From the NCBI GenBank assembly GCA_016840405.1, contig JAEOSK010000019.1, positions 1-51,649 of the forward strand: 51,649 nucleotides of DNA, in the 5' to 3' direction. The notes below the pieces were generated by a model, which searched no databases, was not told the origin of the DNA, and saw only the letters and a list, made by a program, of their open reading frames with translations. Made by a program: the position numbers and the translations under genes. How positions within the stretch are numbered: position 1 is the stretch's first letter; every line of letters begins with the position of its first letter. This DNA is from Candidatus Hermodarchaeum yapensis (GTDB lineage: Archaea; Asgardarchaeota; Hermodarchaeia; Hermodarchaeales; Hermodarchaeaceae). Positions 9,402-14,033 of the stretch are shown here, piece by piece.

Positions 9402-10616
9402 CTAAAGACGCATTGTCCAATCATATTTTCGAAGCCCTAATGCGATTGTGACAGTAAGAAGCTGAATACCTGACTTACCACGAATTTGCGAATCCAAAAA
9501 TGCGTTCAGGGCATCACGCATTGGAAAACTAACCAGCAGTATGAGATTCTGGCGCTCACCGGTTTCCATTACAAGCTTCACTTCTTCAACTGCCCGCATA
9601 GCCTCGGTGAACTTCGTTAGCTGATTGGCTTCAACCTCCAATTGGATTAGCCCGAAGACATCCATGCCCACTCGCTGAGGATCAATTATCGTGCTAAACC
9701 CCTTGATTGTGTTATTTTGCTCCAGTCGGGCAACTCGACTCCGAATCGTTGCGTCACTAACCTTTAACCGACGAGACACATTCCGAAATGATAACCGCGC
9801 GTCCTGTTGCAGCAGGTTCAGGATCCGTCGATCCATCTCATCGAGATCAGCCCGGTGCTTTCGGCGTGATGGTTTTTCTGCTTCTGGTGTAGGATGATAT
9901 CCCAGATAATGAATGATGTCCCCACGATGTGCCATATTCAACCGATAGACATACAATGCCCGCCCTTTCATCTCAGAAGCTGAGGAGATAGCTTTGCATT
10001 GAAAACACCGAAACATCAGCCGCGGTTGGGCACTAATTGTGTTACAATTAAGACAATTGAAACCTAATTCCACTTTGTAGTCCTGTTGTTCGCCCTCCAA
10101 CGACTGCCCACAGGAGGGACACACCAGTTTTTTCCCCTTAGATTCAAATTCGCTTCGTGGAGCAACATGACCACAGGAAAAGTGTTCAATCATCGAATGC
10201 TGAACTAGACGACCACCCGAACACTTCAGACATTGATATTGGGGATGTAAATCCGGGGACTCACATTGCCGACACGCAAAAATGGTTTCCACCAGTTCCC
10301 CCTCAAGGAGGCCTGCCCGGTGAAGCTGTTCCAGTTTATCCACAGTTCCTTGGGCATCAGCTTCCAAGGTGAGTTCTGCCTCAGGATAGCGAAATCCATA
10401 GGAGGTCGATGAATCCAAAACGGGCTGCAATTCGACCAGGCTTCCGTCAAGCAATTGCTTGATTAACAGCCAGGCTCCTCGGTCTTCCAGTACAGAGGGT
10501 TGAAACGTCACAAGTCCACCCGCTTCCGTTGCATGTCCCAACAATCCTCTCGTTCGGGTGTTGATATGCTTTACTCTTATCACGAAACACCCAATCTTCA
10601 CAACCGCTTTCCACAA
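9402..10616 (-). CDS. TackOD1-like Zn-ribbon domain fused to a C-terminal Lrp/AsnC regulator; real start probably GTG 10510
   Basis: GFRYPEAE...L..L...GLL followed by six CxxC/HxxC pairs. C-terminal LDEMDRRILNLLQQDARLSFRNVSRRLKVSDATIRSRVARL is an AsnC HTH, followed by a RAM domain. SD-like GGGTGG precedes GTG 10510. Confidence 0.85.
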   Translation of the reverse strand: MWKAVVKIGCFVIRVKHINTRTRGLLGHATEAGGLVTFQPSVLEDRGAWLLIKQLLDGSLVELQPVLDSSTSYGFRYPEAELTLEADAQGTVDKLEQLHRAGLLEGELVETIFACRQCESPDLHPQYQCLKCSGGRLVQHSMIEHFSCGHVAPRSEFESKGKKLVCPSCGQSLEGEQQDYKVELGFNCLNCNTISAQPRLMFRCFQCKAISSASEMKGRALYVYRLNMAHRGDIIHYLGYHPTPEAEKPSRRKHRADLDEMDRRILNLLQQDARLSFRNVSRRLKVSDATIRSRVARLEQNNTIKGFSTIIDPQRVGMDVFGLIQLEVEANQLTKFTEAMRAVEEVKLVMETGERQNLILLVSFPMRDALNAFLDSQIRGKSGIQLLTVTIALGLRKYDWTMRL

Positions 10617-10628
10617 AAAGTGGAAAGC
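10606..10628. promoter_or_regulatory. Perfect palindrome, candidate operator
   Basis: GCTTTCCAC-AAAAA-GTGGAAAGC (9-bp arms, A-rich centre) upstream of the Lrp-fusion gene. Confidence 0.5.
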
Positions 10629-10890
10629 TTAAAAGACGACACAGAACCGCGCATCCGCGCAGAAACTAATTACAAAATTCACGTTTTTCTCTCAAGTATC
10701 TTGATTTAACTATGCAATTGCGTAGTTTTTTACCGCGGAACTACGCACGCTCCGTCTCCAAAGAATAGTACTTAGAGACACAGATACCGGGAAGCAACCT
10801 GGACGAGAATCGGCGGTCTCCGATGGCTCAAAAACCCACCCGGGAAGCACTCCCAAATTCCTGTCCCTCCCAAACTCCTCCCATAAAAAT

Positions 10891-11168
10891 CCGTTGTCCG
10901 AACCTCAAAAAAGCTCCTTTTATGAGCCACGGAGACCCGATCCCCGTCCGATCGTATGTAAAACGCCCCCCCACGGGGATGGCAACTGGTGGTGTTTTTA
11001 TACCTTTTTATGGACAACACAGGTGTCGCCGTCAGTTGGACGGAGACCCTAAACGCCTGTCAAGAGCCAGGAGGTGACAGCCCCTTTAGCGGGGCAGTGC
11101 CTGGCGATGAAGCAGGAACCGAACACCATCAGGCGAAATGTCCTAGTTGGGTAAGTTTCGGGCAACGG
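10891..11168 (+). mobile_element. Non-autonomous IS607-family derivative (MITE-like) without tnpA/tnpB
   Basis: Ends in GTAAGTTTCGGGCAACGG, resembling IS607 right ends. 10891-10907 is a 14/17 inverted repeat of 11152-11168. The left boundary is uncertain. Confidence 0.5.
10995..11004 (+). promoter_or_regulatory. TATA box for the omegaRNA-like transcript
   Basis: TTTTTATACC lies ~25 nt upstream of the structured RNA start (~11021-11028). Confidence 0.55.
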
Positions 11169-11238
11169 TAAAAGGGGAATGACCACAGGAAGGCTACCCT
11201 CGCATTTTGTGGTTGGGCACCTCCTTACCATTTTTTTT
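11021..11238 (+). ncRNA. IS607-type TnpB omegaRNA-like scaffold (to 11168) plus 3' guide/tail ending in T8
   Basis: Motifs in order: CCGTCAGTTGGACGG hairpin, AAACGCCTGT, GCCAGG/CCTGGC stem, GATGAAGCAGGAACCGAACACC, terminal stem ending AACGG. This order matches what I recall for IS607 tnpB 3' ends. T8 tract at 11231-11238. Confidence 0.75.
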
Positions 11239-11305
11239 ATCGTGAAAAAATATAAGCGCCCGTGAACCTCATGTGAAGTCAACGGGCGAAGCATCATAAA
11301 TCTGC

Positions 11306-12019
11306 TTAGGAACTCACTATTACAAAGTAAATGCTTAGAATGATTAGAATCCCTGCGACGATGATTAGTCCGTAGGTAAAGAGTATGAAAGGCGCAGTAT
11401 ATTGAACAAGAGCCATTAGAATTAGCCCAATGAACCAGAGAGTTTGACCAATCATGGCAATCCAAGTCCACGTTTTTGCCATACCCTGTCGAGCTTGCGC
11501 AATGCGATAGAGGACAATGAGCGGTATCAAGAGTAAATAGAAGATGGCAAGGAAACCGCCATAAGCGACAAGTGTAAACGGCATCGCTAGAAAATTCATA
11601 ACTCCATCAGATACGATTGTGACAGTGGCCGGTGTAGGAAGAATCCATACGAGTGCAAGAAAGGTAAGCGTACCTATGATGGGAAGAAAAATCGCCCAAA
11701 TCCGTCTCTTGAAAAATGGAAGACCAAGCATATACATTACCAAGAAGAAACCATGTAACCCAATAAAGCTCCAAGCGCCAAGATACGTTGGTAAGAGTTG
11801 ATCAACCGTTGCAGCAGCTGGCAAAACGTACATTGAGATAGCTAAGACCATAAAAGTTAGAAAAGCAAAGAAAGCACCCAGAAACAAGTTGTATAATGTA
11901 CAACTAGGCTCCTCGCTTCTAAGAGCCAAAATCAAGGCTATTAGAGAACCAAGGAGTGTAAGAACGCAGATTATGATAACTAGTCCAAAATGTAATGGTG
12001 TTTCAGCAATGTAGAGCAT
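11306..12019 (-). CDS. Stand-alone 7-TM membrane protein (HisKA_7TM-like sensor without kinase domain)
   Basis: Seven hydrophobic helices, beta-hairpin-like loop between TM4 and TM5, no cytoplasmic output domain. Confidence 0.65.
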   Translation of the reverse strand: MLYIAETPLHFGLVIIICVLTLLGSLIALILALRSEEPSCTLYNLFLGAFFAFLTFMVLAISMYVLPAAATVDQLLPTYLGAWSFIGLHGFFLVMYMLGLPFFKRRIWAIFLPIIGTLTFLALVWILPTPATVTIVSDGVMNFLAMPFTLVAYGGFLAIFYLLLIPLIVLYRIAQARQGMAKTWTWIAMIGQTLWFIGLILMALVQYTAPFILFTYGLIIVAGILIILSIYFVIVSS

Positions 12020-12229
12020 TCCAAGGAACCCTCCAGCATGCCATCCTTTTGTTTTTGTTTATAAACACTTACTTTTGTGTGCGTTTTATTTGTCATATAT
12101 ATAGCCACTAGGCTCACTCTAAAAGACAACGCGTCCATATGGTTAGAGTATCCAGAAACTCCATGTCTCGCGGGCATAACTTTTTTCCGATTCTAATCTG
12201 TTTTCCGGAAAAAACTCCAGCACCTAAAG

Positions 12230-12244
12230 GAAAGCATTTTAAAT
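12230..12244 (+). promoter_or_regulatory. BRE/TATA promoter
   Basis: GAAAGCATTTTAAAT has the same GAAAG + T/A-box layout as the promoters at 1584 and 16385. Confidence 0.55.
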
Positions 12245-12265
12245 TCAGTACACCAATAACACCCT

Positions 12266-12533
12266 GGAATATAGGGAGTTCCCGAGGTGGAATAGAGCAC
12301 AACTCAACACCCCCTACCGTTGAGAAGGCAACCTATCTCCCCTCACCGCAAATCACCATATTTCACCATAGGACTCACAACGACGTGAAAACGAGGAACA
12401 CCATCGGCGACAGGAATCGGGGTATCCTTCCCTGTGTCTTTCATTCCCCTCTCCCCCTCTCCTCCTTTATGTCCTCGTTCTGGACGCCCCGTTCCCGCTA
12501 TAGGGTGACGCACCCTGCGTCACCCGTTTTTTT
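12266..12533 (+). ncRNA. Candidate structured small RNA (~265 nt), family unknown
   Basis: Flanked by a promoter and a terminator. Stems CTCAAC/GTTGAG, AACGAGGA/TCCTCGTT and TATAG/CTATA. C-rich repeats; no convincing ORF. Confidence 0.5.
12503..12533 (+). terminator. 10-bp perfect hairpin plus T7
   Basis: GGGTGACGCA-CCC-TGCGTCACCC-G-TTTTTTT. Confidence 0.7.
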
Positions 12534-12611
12534 GGCTTAATCCTTTAACGCAATATTTGTCATTGGAGTGGATTGTGAAACCTAGTTCTGATTCACAACC
12601 AGTTTGTGTTA

Positions 12612-14033
12612 TTACTTGGACGGTTCTTTCCATTGTTGTGCCGTTGCATTCCATAGAGTAACGGTTGAAAGTGCAGGTTCTTGGGGAATATCGCGTTTGA
12701 ATCGTAGAACCGAGACAGTTCGGATATCAGAGAAGTTCAGGAGTGTCCGGGTGAGTTGTTTCATTAGACTGGCCCCGCCACTAGAAATCCCGATGAAGAT
12801 TATGGCTCCTTTATTCGTAGGGTATAACCGACTCATTGTGTATTGGGAGATGAGTTGATGAAAAGTTGGCAGAATAACCTCATCACTTTGAGTAATGATA
12901 CAGATGATATCGTCAAAGGTAAGGCGACTGAAGGCTACAGACGGGAAAAGGGTTTTCATTTTCTTGAGTTGCCGTTCATGTTTCCAGACTGTTTTTTCTG
13001 CTAGTGGAAAACCGTATTTGGACAGCAGGTGTGTTCGTTCTTTTTTTGTTAGCAGAGCTTCACTGAGTGTTAAGGCGAGAAGCCAGTCTGCTGGGTTAAA
13101 TGTGATTGAATCTTGGCTGTAATCAAATCCTCGAAGAGGTGGGAATTGTTCTCCATGATGGTCTATGAACTGCGCAAGTCCTTCAGTTTGTACATCTGAT
13201 AAGATTCGCCATTGCTGTGAAACATGATTATAATAATCAAAGCTGATGTGTGAATAGTATCCTTTGATTTGATGGATATCAGAAGTGACGAAGAACTGTT
13301 CTCGAATATTTTCTAGTAAACGATGAATGGTCCTGATCCATGAACTCTGGTTGGGGGAGTAAAATAAGAGACAACCATCTTGATTATTAACATCCCATCC
13401 GCAACCTAACAGAAAGGGAAGCTGATTTTCCCTCAAAGCTTTAGTGCGAATCCAGGTATCAAAAGCTTGAGTGGCTTCGATAGACTTGGTTCGAAAAAGA
13501 ATACAATATTGTATGAGTCCAAACCGTTGTGGGTCCAATATTGATGCGTTTCGGATTCCGTATTGGGAAAACAATTGTTGCTTTTCGCGTTTCATTATTC
13601 GTGGACTAATTCCTAAGATGTTAGCTAGCGCTACTGAACCAATTTCAGGATTCAGTTGTTGGGTTGTGAGAAATTCGGTCTGTCGTCGATTCAGTTTTAG
13701 TGGAGATGGTGGAAGAAGCCCTGCGGTTAATAATTCTATAGCTCTATCTCCATCAGCTAGTCCAAAGCTAGCTAAGCGATGAAGTCGAAATTCCAATTCC
13801 GTTCCCAATTCATAAGACAATGGTTGATGTCTAATACCAACTAATGGATAATCACGAACGTCCGAATCCGCTATTTCTGATGCCCCGAGAAAAACTCGAT
13901 TTAGATATAGGATAATTTGAGCTAGCACTAGCTTGAGTTGAACTTTGTTCTGATCTTGAACGTTTTCTACAATATTTTCCGTAAGTCTCCGCCAAGACTC
14001 AAGTTGACTTGACATTCCGATTCCGTCGTTCAA
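12612..14033 (-). CDS. Putative transcription regulator with tandem (winged-helix + Lrp/RAM-like) modules; start may be ATG 14015
   Basis: wHTH 'LNRRQTEFL...NPEIGSVALANILGISPRIMKREKQQL', 'LDPQRFGL', 'FDYY....QW' and a second wHTH 'EKTVWKHERQLKK'. Paralog of 14727-16154. Confidence 0.65.
   Translation of the reverse strand: MNDGIGMSSQLESWRRLTENIVENVQDQNKVQLKLVLAQIILYLNRVFLGASEIADSDVRDYPLVGIRHQPLSYELGTELEFRLHRLASFGLADGDRAIELLTAGLLPPSPLKLNRRQTEFLTTQQLNPEIGSVALANILGISPRIMKREKQQLFSQYGIRNASILDPQRFGLIQYCILFRTKSIEATQAFDTWIRTKALRENQLPFLLGCGWDVNNQDGCLLFYSPNQSSWIRTIHRLLENIREQFFVTSDIHQIKGYYSHISFDYYNHVSQQWRILSDVQTEGLAQFIDHHGEQFPPLRGFDYSQDSITFNPADWLLALTLSEALLTKKERTHLLSKYGFPLAEKTVWKHERQLKKMKTLFPSVAFSRLTFDDIICIITQSDEVILPTFHQLISQYTMSRLYPTNKGAIIFIGISSGGASLMKQLTRTLLNFSDIRTVSVLRFKRDIPQEPALSTVTLWNATAQQWKEPSK

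What the first reader, a model, noticed from the sequence alone, without database searches (positions are those of the whole stretch)
11169..12450. The omegaRNA 'guide' tail is complementary to a second candidate RNA 1.2 kb downstream
Seen: the reverse complement of 11173-11202 is CGAGGGTAGCCTTCCTGTGGTCATTCCCCT. Positions 12418-12450 read CGGGGTATCCTTCCCTGTGTCTTTCATTCCCCT. Shared blocks are GGGTA, CCTTCC, TGTG and a perfect TCATTCCCCT. The two elements also share a direct motif, GAACACCATC(A)GGCGA (11121-11136 vs 12396-12410). On the minus strand the matched site is preceded by AGAGGG, a GG-ending TAM-like context. However, 3 of the first 4 guide positions mismatch, which argues against canonical DNA cleavage. 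Inference: an RNA-RNA regulatory pair, a non-cleaving RNA-guided interaction with the region upstream of the 7-TM gene, or a guide decoy. Degenerate inverted repeats flanking the 7-TM gene are an alternative explanation.
Basis: partly seen in the sequence, partly recalled or inferred. Interest (0 to 1): 0.8.

Follow-up and report, generated by a model that had tools for sequence, protein, structure and literature searches.

The report
Mini-transposon guide is borrowed host sequence
The "guide" of this orphan TnpB guide RNA is host DNA next to which a 189-bp mini-transposon inserted in this genome only, and its match to a site 1.2 kb away is older than the insertion: it links two conserved non-coding elements of Hermodarchaeota (Asgard archaea).

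Summary
The letters and coordinates are correct. rc(11173-11202) aligns with 12418-12450 at 27 of 30 positions with two gaps. Window 11025-11169 is a genuine TnpB omegaRNA scaffold.

The guide-target reading fails. All 11 syntenic relatives, in two genera, carry a precise empty site. So 10980-11168 is a TnpB-less, promoter-bearing mini-IS (PATE-like) private to this genome, and the "guide" is pre-existing flank. Read without gaps, as TnpB reads a target, site B has 9 of 20 mismatches, worse than many other genome sites.

The flank belongs to a conserved non-coding element, A (about 10620-11240). Site B lies in a conserved plus-strand ncRNA candidate, B (about 12268-12533). B has covarying closing helices and an invariant C/U-rich loop of about 60 nt. 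It was found in 13 of 18 family genomes and in none of 132 genomes of other families of the phylum.

The A:B complementarity exists in all 12 genomes that have both elements. In the sister genus A and B lie about 190 nt apart. Support against shuffles is uneven (p from below 0.001 to 0.19). B never varies, so compensatory change cannot be tested. No expression data were obtainable.

Verdict: an ordinary mini-IS insertion. The complementarity is ancestral and its function is unproven. Other first-stage notes of this scan had already flagged B-like units in related genomes.

The parts
10980..11168 (+). 189-bp TnpB-less mini-IS (PATE-like): a short left end plus the omegaRNA scaffold. It is private to this genome. 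Boundaries are uncertain by 1-2 nt because of a GG shared at both junctions. There is no target-site duplication.
   Evidence: Empty site in the closest relative: window 10620-10978 abuts 11167 onward. The same holds in 10 further relatives. Other orphan copies end at the same right-end boundary and are followed by unrelated sequence.
10995..11002 (+). TATA-like box in the left end, about 23-30 nt upstream of the scaffold's first base. It is conserved in other orphan copies.
   Evidence: Sequence. The same box sits at the same distance in orphan copies of this genome and of relatives. Promoter function is inferred.
11025..11169 (+). omegaRNA scaffold. It belongs to a family of about 10 copies in this genome, 5 of which directly follow a tnpB 3' end.
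   Evidence: a 421-aa TnpB with OrfB_IS605 and TNB domains lies beside one copy. The alignment shows 31 pairs, 8 with compensatory changes. Covariance model hit of 146.7 bits.
11169..11202 (+). The 'guide' tail. This is the native purine-rich motif of host element A. Block 1 is 11173-11182 and block 2 is 11184-11193.
   Evidence: The same sequence is present in the closest relative without the insertion. The motif is conserved in 12 genomes of two genera.
10620..11238 (+). Host element A, about 430 nt without the insertion. It is a conserved non-coding element with a BRE/TATA-like start at 10622-10635, C/U-rich blocks, several hairpins, and a terminal hairpin plus T8 at 11231-11238. The strand is inferred, not shown.
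   Evidence: Alignment of 12 genomes. Structural support is weak: the covariation term is not favourable and the G.U against A.C counts do not decide the strand. In the sister genus it keeps its linkage to B although the flanking protein genes differ.
11306..12019 (-). 237-aa multi-pass membrane protein gene lying between A and B. It has no Pfam or NCBIfam family.
   Evidence: The gene content between A and B varies among relatives, from about 190 nt to several kb.
12229..12244 (+). BRE/TATA-like promoter of candidate RNA B, conserved in the genus.
   Evidence: alignment. Promoter function is inferred.
12268..12533 (+). Candidate ncRNA B, about 265 nt. Closing helices 12406-12423 with 12486-12499 enclose a loop of about 60 nt (12424-12485) that is invariant in every copy found. 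The loop contains a small hairpin, 12471-12474 with 12482-12485. A terminator hairpin at 12503-12525 is followed by T7 at 12527-12533.
   Evidence: Closing helices are 100% paired in 13 sequences, and 3 of their pairs carry double compensatory changes. Two helix-end G.U pairs are kept in 12 of 13 sequences. There are 44 G.U against 3 A.C cells, which indicates the plus strand. The model finds one copy per genome in 13 of 18 family genomes and none in 132 genomes of other families.
12418..12450 (+). Site B of the finding. It comprises the 5' strand of B's inner closing helix (12418-12423) plus the first 27 nt of the invariant loop.

Best explanation
Window 10980-11168 is a non-autonomous, TnpB-less mini-IS of the IS200/IS605-IS607 superfamily (PATE-like). 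It consists of a short left end with its own TATA box and an omegaRNA scaffold.

It inserted, in this genome only, into a conserved host non-coding element (A), a few bases 5' of A's purine-rich motif. That motif therefore now occupies the guide position. As in every such element, the guide is simply the DNA flanking the right end. Its only perfect match is its own flank, which fits the usual role of re-cutting the empty donor site.

The match to 12418-12450 is an older property of element A against the invariant C/U-rich loop of a neighbouring conserved ncRNA candidate (B). It predates the insertion and is not a TnpB guide-target relation.

Shown: the insertion polymorphism, scaffold family membership, conservation of A and B, B's helices and strand, and the antiquity of the complementarity.

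Inferred: transcription of the omegaRNA, of A and of B, and loading of the omegaRNA by a TnpB encoded elsewhere.

Open: whether the A:B complementarity is functional. My estimates are about 0.3 for a functional pairing, about 0.15 for a relic of an inverted duplication, and the remainder for a low-complexity match retained because both elements are conserved for other reasons.
For: 1. Empty site. The closest relative joins window 10978 to 11167. Ten further syntenic relatives in two genera do the same.
2. The scaffold family has about 10 copies. Five directly follow tnpB. It has a covarying structure and a covariance model hit of 146.7 bits.
3. Orphan copies elsewhere end at the same boundary, carry unrelated 3' flanks, and share the left-end TATA.
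4. The closest relative, which lacks the insertion, has the same tail and the same extended match to B.
5. Read without gaps, site B has 9 of 20 mismatches to the guide, including 3 of the first 5. Many other sites have only 5.
6. B is a conserved structured plus-strand unit whose loop is invariant in 13 genomes and 6 metagenome contigs.
7. A paralogue of B with a similar C/U-rich core has no A-like neighbour within 4 kb. B's loop conservation therefore does not depend on A.
8. PATE-like elements that carry omegaRNAs and depend on TnpB in trans are described in the literature (PMC10055086).
Against: - No TnpA, of either the Y1 or the serine type, was found in this 86%-complete genome. How the element moved is therefore unexplained.
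- The nearest copies are only about 81% identical, so recent activity cannot be shown.
- The tail is the top-ranked gapped match of B's loop genome-wide and lies 1.2 kb away. A and B stay linked across two genera despite different flanking genes. So the complementarity may be more than a passive leftover.
Confidence: 0.8

Rival explanations
1. Host elements A and B are two plus-strand RNAs that pair in trans. A's purine-rich motif binds B's invariant C/U-rich loop, acting as a sponge, an antagonist or a co-regulator. After the insertion, the same motif is also carried on the omegaRNA 3' tail, so the chimeric RNA could still pair with B.
For: - Complementarity is present in all 12 genomes that have both elements. 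Duplex energies run from -35 to -52 kcal/mol, with z-scores of -1.8 to -6.1.
- The A/G variation in block 1 always faces a U, so a pair is kept on plus-strand RNAs only.
- Block 2 shifts register in the sister genus yet stays complementary over 9-10 nt.
- A and B stay linked across two genera with different neighbouring genes. In the sister genus they are about 190 nt apart and the complementarity is strongest there (p about 0.001-0.007).
- The target lies in a loop predicted to be single-stranded.
Against: - In five relatives, 7-19% of composition-preserving shuffles do as well.
- One genome has lost block 2, and two others carry a mismatch or a deletion in it.
- B never varies, so no compensatory change can be seen.
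- The purine-against-C/U composition makes such duplexes cheap. A's motif also has intramolecular partners.
- A's strand and transcription are not shown.
- B's paralogue keeps a similar loop without any A-like neighbour.
- The extra pairing specific to this genome and its closest relative would have to open B's own closing helix.
Confidence: 0.3
2. The omegaRNA guides a TnpB, or a nuclease-dead relative, to the DNA at 12418-12450 without cutting. This would regulate B or the 7-TM gene promoter, in the manner of TldR-type RNA-guided repressors.
For: - The orphan omegaRNA has its own TATA box.
- The genome encodes about 28 TnpB copies.
- On the minus strand, the G-rich bases 5' of the matched site resemble those on the TAM side of the insertion.
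Against: - The guide pre-exists as host flank in all relatives, and the insertion is private.
- There are 9 of 20 ungapped mismatches, 3 of them in the first 5 TAM-proximal positions. A 3-nt bulge is needed to continue the match.
- No TnpB-like gene lies beside this copy.
- Other orphan copies have unrelated guides.
Confidence: 0.03
3. This is a DNA-level inverted repeat with no RNA role. Either it is a relic of an ancient inverted duplication between A and B, or it is a pair of protein or recombination sites bracketing a variable gene slot.
For: - The reverse complement of A's motif resembles B over about 30-40 nt.
- The gene content between A and B varies from about 190 nt to several kb among relatives.
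- Similarity is highest where A and B are adjacent.
Against: - B's covariance model does not detect A on either strand.
- The conserved A/G difference is a plain mismatch at the DNA level but a G.U pair at the RNA level.
- No recombinase is linked, and no inverted orientation of the intervening segment was seen among the 11 relatives.
Confidence: 0.15

Closest known systems
PATE-like non-autonomous IS200/IS605 elements carrying omegaRNAs (Meers et al. 2023, PMC10055086)
   Same: No protein-coding gene. Keeps the transposon ends and an omegaRNA scaffold homologous to tnpB-linked copies. The guide is the right-end flank. Depends on a TnpB encoded elsewhere. Multiple copies per genome. Precise empty site with no target duplication.
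   Different: Archaeal (Hermodarchaeota). The short left end carries a conserved TATA box placed to start transcription at the scaffold's first base. No TnpA of either type was detected in the genome. A GG is shared at both junctions; from my own knowledge this is reminiscent of IS607-type crossover, but it was not tested.
TldR-type TnpB-derived RNA-guided transcription regulators (own knowledge, not checked in the library)
   Same: An omegaRNA-like guide with a conserved target near a promoter.
   Different: Here there is no adjacent TnpB-like gene. The guide is not conserved as a guide because the insertion is private. The match to the supposed target is gapped and its seed is mismatched.
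Trans-acting small RNAs with exposed C/U-rich, anti-Shine-Dalgarno-like loops, and their sponge RNAs (own knowledge)
   Same: B has a promoter, a terminator, a closing helix and an invariant pyrimidine-rich loop. A carries a purine-rich stretch complementary to about 20 nt of that loop.
   Different: No Rfam family matches either element. There is no evidence of expression or of targets. The family is confined to one Asgard family in the genomes searched.

Membership tests
TnpB omegaRNA | Scaffold homologous to RNAs encoded at the 3' end of tnpB genes | tested here: met
   Five of about 10 genome copies abut the TNB domain of tnpB. A 421-aa TnpB with OrfB_IS605, TNB and HTH domains overlaps one copy.
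TnpB omegaRNA | Conserved secondary structure with covariation | tested here: met
   31 pairs, 8 with compensatory changes. The window copy scores 146.7 bits.
TnpB omegaRNA | Fixed scaffold 3' boundary followed by a copy-specific guide | tested here: met
   All copies end at the same boundary, and the 3' flanks are unrelated.
TnpB omegaRNA | Adjacent tnpB gene | tested here: not met
   There is no TnpB ORF or remnant upstream. The neighbouring genes are a TackOD1-Lrp regulator and a 7-TM protein. This makes it an orphan, PATE-like copy.
TnpB omegaRNA | Transcribed and bound by TnpB | not testable with these tools
Non-autonomous IS200/IS605-type mini element (PATE/MITE-like) | Presence/absence polymorphism with a precise empty site and no target duplication | tested here: met
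Non-autonomous IS200/IS605-type mini element (PATE/MITE-like) | Multiple copies sharing both ends | tested here: met
   The right end is shared by all copies. The left-end TATA region is shared by orphan copies in this genome and in relatives. The exact left boundary is defined only for the window copy.
Non-autonomous IS200/IS605-type mini element (PATE/MITE-like) | Cognate transposase (TnpA) encoded in the genome | tested here: not met
   No Y1_Tnp or Resolvase match was found in the 86%-complete assembly. Absence is not proven.
TnpB guide-target pair | Contiguous TAM-proximal match of at least about 12 nt between guide and target | tested here: not met
   9 of 20 mismatches, 3 of them in the first 5 positions. 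The match continues only across a 3-nt bulge.
TnpB guide-target pair | Correct TAM 5' of the target | tested here: inconclusive
   The TAM-side flank of the window copy is G-rich, and so is the sequence 5' of site B on the minus strand. The family's TAM was not determined.
Trans-acting sRNA with partner RNA (A:B) | Complementarity conserved in orthologous loci | tested here: met
   Both blocks are present in most of the 12 genomes. Block 1 is present in all.
Trans-acting sRNA with partner RNA (A:B) | Compensatory changes across the intermolecular helix | tested here: inconclusive
   B's loop is invariant in 13 genomes and 6 metagenome contigs. Only A-side changes are seen: an A/G facing a U, and a register shift.
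Trans-acting sRNA with partner RNA (A:B) | Complementarity exceeds composition-preserving shuffles | tested here: inconclusive
   p ranges from below 0.001 to 0.19 across genomes.
Trans-acting sRNA with partner RNA (A:B) | Both RNAs expressed on the pairing strands | not testable with these tools
   B's plus strand is supported by G.U counts. A's strand rests only on promoter-like and T-run signals.

The most novel reading that the evidence does not exclude
A and B are a conserved pair of Hermodarchaeota (Asgard) regulatory RNAs. A's purine-rich 3' motif titrates or is controlled by B's invariant C/U-rich loop. In this genome a mobile omegaRNA has landed exactly 5' of that motif, creating a chimeric RNA that puts a host regulatory seed in the guide position of a TnpB guide RNA. 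This would be a natural first step toward domesticating an RNA-guided system, or toward cross-talk between a transposon RNA and a host sRNA network.
Probability: 0.2. Interest if true: 0.6.

Novelty: new member of a known kind. Interest (0 to 1): 0.33.

Why it matters
For the finding itself, the result is a warning. An omegaRNA tail is whatever DNA the element landed beside, so a match between a tail and a nearby site needs an empty-site check before it is read as targeting.

The by-products are of moderate interest:
- a promoter-bearing orphan omegaRNA family in Asgard archaea;
- a lineage-specific ncRNA candidate (B, plus a paralogue) with a 60-nt invariant pyrimidine loop and clear covariation;
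- a linked conserved element (A) that is complementary to that loop.

If A and B do pair, they would be one of the first regulatory RNA pairs proposed for Asgard archaea.

Tried and rejected
- Rfam: no match at gathering thresholds over the whole window, and only noise at E up to 10 over 10560-12640.
- Element A's minus strand as an old omegaRNA. This was prompted by a 12-nt match of 10891-10902 to the reverse complement of the scaffold's end. The covariance model gives only 11.6 bits, E 0.47, and that hit partly uses the insertion itself. Rejected.
- RNAduplex on full-length A against B produced meaningless end-to-end duplexes. I replaced it with a local complementary alignment that allows G.U pairs.
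- Protein-coding readings of B. The 133-aa plus-strand ORF and the 56-aa minus-strand ORF are both broken by 1- and 2-nt indels among relatives. Rejected.
- A small hydrophobic ORF starting inside A's motif, as in a type I toxin. The frame is not conserved. Rejected.
- A's strand from G.U against A.C counts: undecided.
- Variants of B's loop that would allow a compensatory-change test: none found. The loop is identical in all copies from the genome and metagenome scans.
- An A-like partner beside the B paralogue: none within 4 kb.
- The family's TAM was not determined. The left boundary is secure only for the window copy.

Full report
**Observation.** The reverse complement of 11173-11202 aligns with 12418-12450 at 27 of 30 positions, with a 1-nt gap and a 3-nt gap. 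The perfect 10-nt block is 11173-11182 against 12441-12450. The direct 15-of-16 motif, 11121-11136 against 12396-12410, is also there.

**What 11025-11169 is.** A search of the window's own genome with 10760-11270 finds about 10 copies of the segment 11024-11171, at 72-81% identity. Five of them directly follow the zinc-finger/TNB domain of a tnpB gene. One such gene is a 421-aa protein with HTH_OrfB_IS605, OrfB_IS605 and Cas12f1-like TNB domains. The eight aligned copies fold into a common structure of 31 pairs, 8 of them with compensatory changes. A covariance model built from them scores the window copy at 146.7 bits. All copies end at the same boundary and continue with unrelated sequence. 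The window copy has no tnpB upstream. Its neighbours are a TackOD1-Lrp/AsnC regulator gene (9402-10616, minus strand) and a 237-aa membrane protein gene (11306-12019, minus strand).

**The decisive result: an empty site.** I searched 40 relatives with 10620-12620. In the closest relative, window 10620-10978 (85% identity) is joined directly to window 11167-12270 (82% identity). Pairwise and multiple alignments confirm this. Ten more syntenic relatives, in two genera, all lack the scaffold at this position.
- The inserted unit is 10980-11168, 189 bp, with a 1-2 nt ambiguity from a shared GG and no target duplication.
- It comprises a 45-nt left end and the scaffold.
- The left end carries a TATA-like box at 10995-11002, placed 23-30 nt before the scaffold's first base. 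Orphan copies in this genome and in relatives share this box.
- The element is therefore a gene-less, promoter-bearing mini-IS. The closest described kind is the PATE-like elements that carry omegaRNAs and rely on TnpB in trans (PMC10055086).
- No TnpA, Y1 or serine type, was found in the 86%-complete genome, while about 28 tnpB matches exist.

**Consequence for the "guide".** The tail 11169-11202 is host sequence that was there before the insertion. The closest relative lacks the omegaRNA but has nearly the same tail and the same extended match to site B. Read without gaps from the scaffold boundary, as a TnpB guide, the tail has 9 of 20 mismatches to site B on the minus strand, 3 of them in the first 5 positions. 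Many other genome sites have only 5 mismatches, and the only perfect match is the tail's own flank. A guide-target relation, whether cleaving or not, is not supported.

**What the tail belongs to.** The non-coding stretch 10620-11240, minus the insertion, is conserved across 12 genomes of two genera. I call it element A.
- It starts with a BRE/TATA-like signal at 10622-10635.
- It contains invariant C/U-rich blocks and several hairpins.
- It ends with the purine-rich motif (the "guide"), a hairpin and a T-run at 11231-11238.
- Structural support is modest. The covariation term is not favourable, and G.U against A.C counts do not decide the strand. Its status as a plus-strand RNA is an inference from promoter orientation and the T-run.

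**What site B belongs to.** Window 12181-12533 is conserved in the genus, and a block of about 60 nt (12419-12479) is identical in all genomes. On the plus strand there is a BRE/TATA-like signal at 12229-12244.
- Two closing helices, 12406-12423 with 12486-12499, are paired in 100% of 13 sequences.
- Three of their pairs show double compensatory changes. The G.U pairs at both ends of the closing stem are kept in 12 of 13 sequences.
- Counts of 44 G.U against 3 A.C cells indicate the plus strand.
- A small hairpin sits inside the loop, and a covarying terminator hairpin with T7 follows.
- Indels among relatives exclude the overlapping ORFs, and Rfam has no match.
- A covariance model of this domain finds one copy per genome in 13 of 18 genomes of the family and none in 132 genomes of other families of the phylum.
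- Record titles identify the group as Hermodarchaeota / Promethearchaeota MAGs.
- Six metagenome contigs carry the same invariant loop.
- A paralogue with the same architecture, covarying closing helices and a related C/U-rich core exists in some relatives. It was not detected in this genome, and it has no A-like element within 4 kb.
- Site B is thus the 5' strand of B's inner closing helix plus the first 27 nt of the invariant loop.

**Is the A:B complementarity meaningful?** Evidence for:
- It is present in every genome that has both elements. Block 1 is always present, and its A/G variation always faces a U.
- Block 2 is a perfect 9-mer in most genus-1 genomes. In the sister genus it shifts by two positions but remains 9-10 nt long.
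- In the sister genus A and B are adjacent on the same strand, about 190 nt apart, with different flanking protein genes (a ferredoxin and a RidA-like protein). So A and B travel as a unit.
- In the window's genome the tail is the top gapped match of B's loop and lies only 1.2 kb away.

Evidence against:
- The genome-wide scores are near-ties: 30 against 28-29.
- When full A is shuffled with composition preserved and aligned to full B, p ranges from below 0.001 to 0.19 depending on the genome.
- One genome has lost block 2, and two others carry defects in it.
- Purine-rich against C/U-rich sequences pair cheaply, and A's motif also has partners within A.
- B never varies, so compensatory change cannot be tested.
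- The paralogue keeps a related loop core without an A-like neighbour.

I put a functional RNA-RNA pairing at about 0.3, a relic of an inverted duplication at about 0.15, and the remainder on a retained low-complexity match.

**The direct motif.** Its left half lies in the private insertion, partly in a variable loop of the scaffold. Its right half lies in a linker of B that is not conserved even in the closest relative. Only the last 5 nt of that half, which form the start of B's outer helix, are conserved. Shuffles reach the score 17 times in 2000. I treat it as chance.

**Mechanism proposed.**
1. The omegaRNA is transcribed from the left-end TATA and runs through the scaffold into the host flank, up to A's own T-run (inferred).
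2. It is bound in trans by one of the genome's TnpB proteins (inferred).
3. Its guide matches only the empty-site allele. This is the usual selfish function of re-cutting the donor joint (established for the family, PMC10055086; not tested here).
4. The insertion splits element A between an upstream hairpin and its purine-rich motif. If A is a functional RNA, this genome carries an interrupted or chimeric version. Whether that matters is unknown.

**Verdict.** The omegaRNA-centred interpretation is not supported. The complementarity is ancestral, links two conserved host elements, and has no proven function. The mini-IS is a new member of a known kind. B, with A, is an undescribed lineage-specific ncRNA candidate of moderate interest.

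Noticed in passing
window 12229-12533; related loci L026-L037, L082-L087: Candidate ncRNA B. It has a promoter, covarying closing helices, a pyrimidine-rich loop of about 60 nt that is identical in 13 genomes and 6 metagenome contigs, and a terminator. It was found only in one Hermodarchaeota family (13 of 18 genomes; 0 of 132 genomes of other families). No Rfam family matches.
   Followed up: yes
L073:198-330(+), L074:186-319(+), L075:171-306(+), L076:174-307(-): A paralogue of B in some relatives. It has the same architecture and closing helices that covary with B's, but a shorter and different C/U-rich loop sharing a core with B. It was not detected in the window's genome, and no A-like element lies within 4 kb.
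   Followed up: partly
L037:100-860 and L036 (reverse strand): In the sister genus, elements A and B lie head-to-tail on one strand about 190 nt apart. They are flanked by a ferredoxin gene and a RidA-like gene instead of the TackOD1-Lrp and 7-TM genes. In the window's genus, 1.2 to about 6 kb of variable genes separate A and B.
   Followed up: partly
window 10704-10750: A conserved near-perfect palindrome followed about 20 nt later by a third copy of its half-site, just upstream of the TackOD1-Lrp gene. Wobble evidence conflicts between strands across relatives, which suggests a DNA operator (possibly for autoregulation) rather than an RNA hairpin.
   Followed up: partly
window 10891-10907: A 17-nt stretch resembling the reverse complement of the omegaRNA right end, which another first-stage note read as the left end of a 278-bp MITE. 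It is invariant in all relatives that lack the insertion, so it is host sequence. The true left boundary is 10980.
   Followed up: yes
whole genome (G000): About 28 tnpB matches over the Pfam cut-off, several of them interrupted by stop codons or truncated. No Y1 or serine TnpA was detected in the 86%-complete assembly. At least 5 orphan omegaRNA copies exist (contigs C54, C30, C18, C77, C45).
   Followed up: partly
L034:4034-4176 (+): One relative has an independent omegaRNA copy (119 bits) a few hundred bases from its own element A. The A region may be a repeated landing site for these elements.
   Followed up: no
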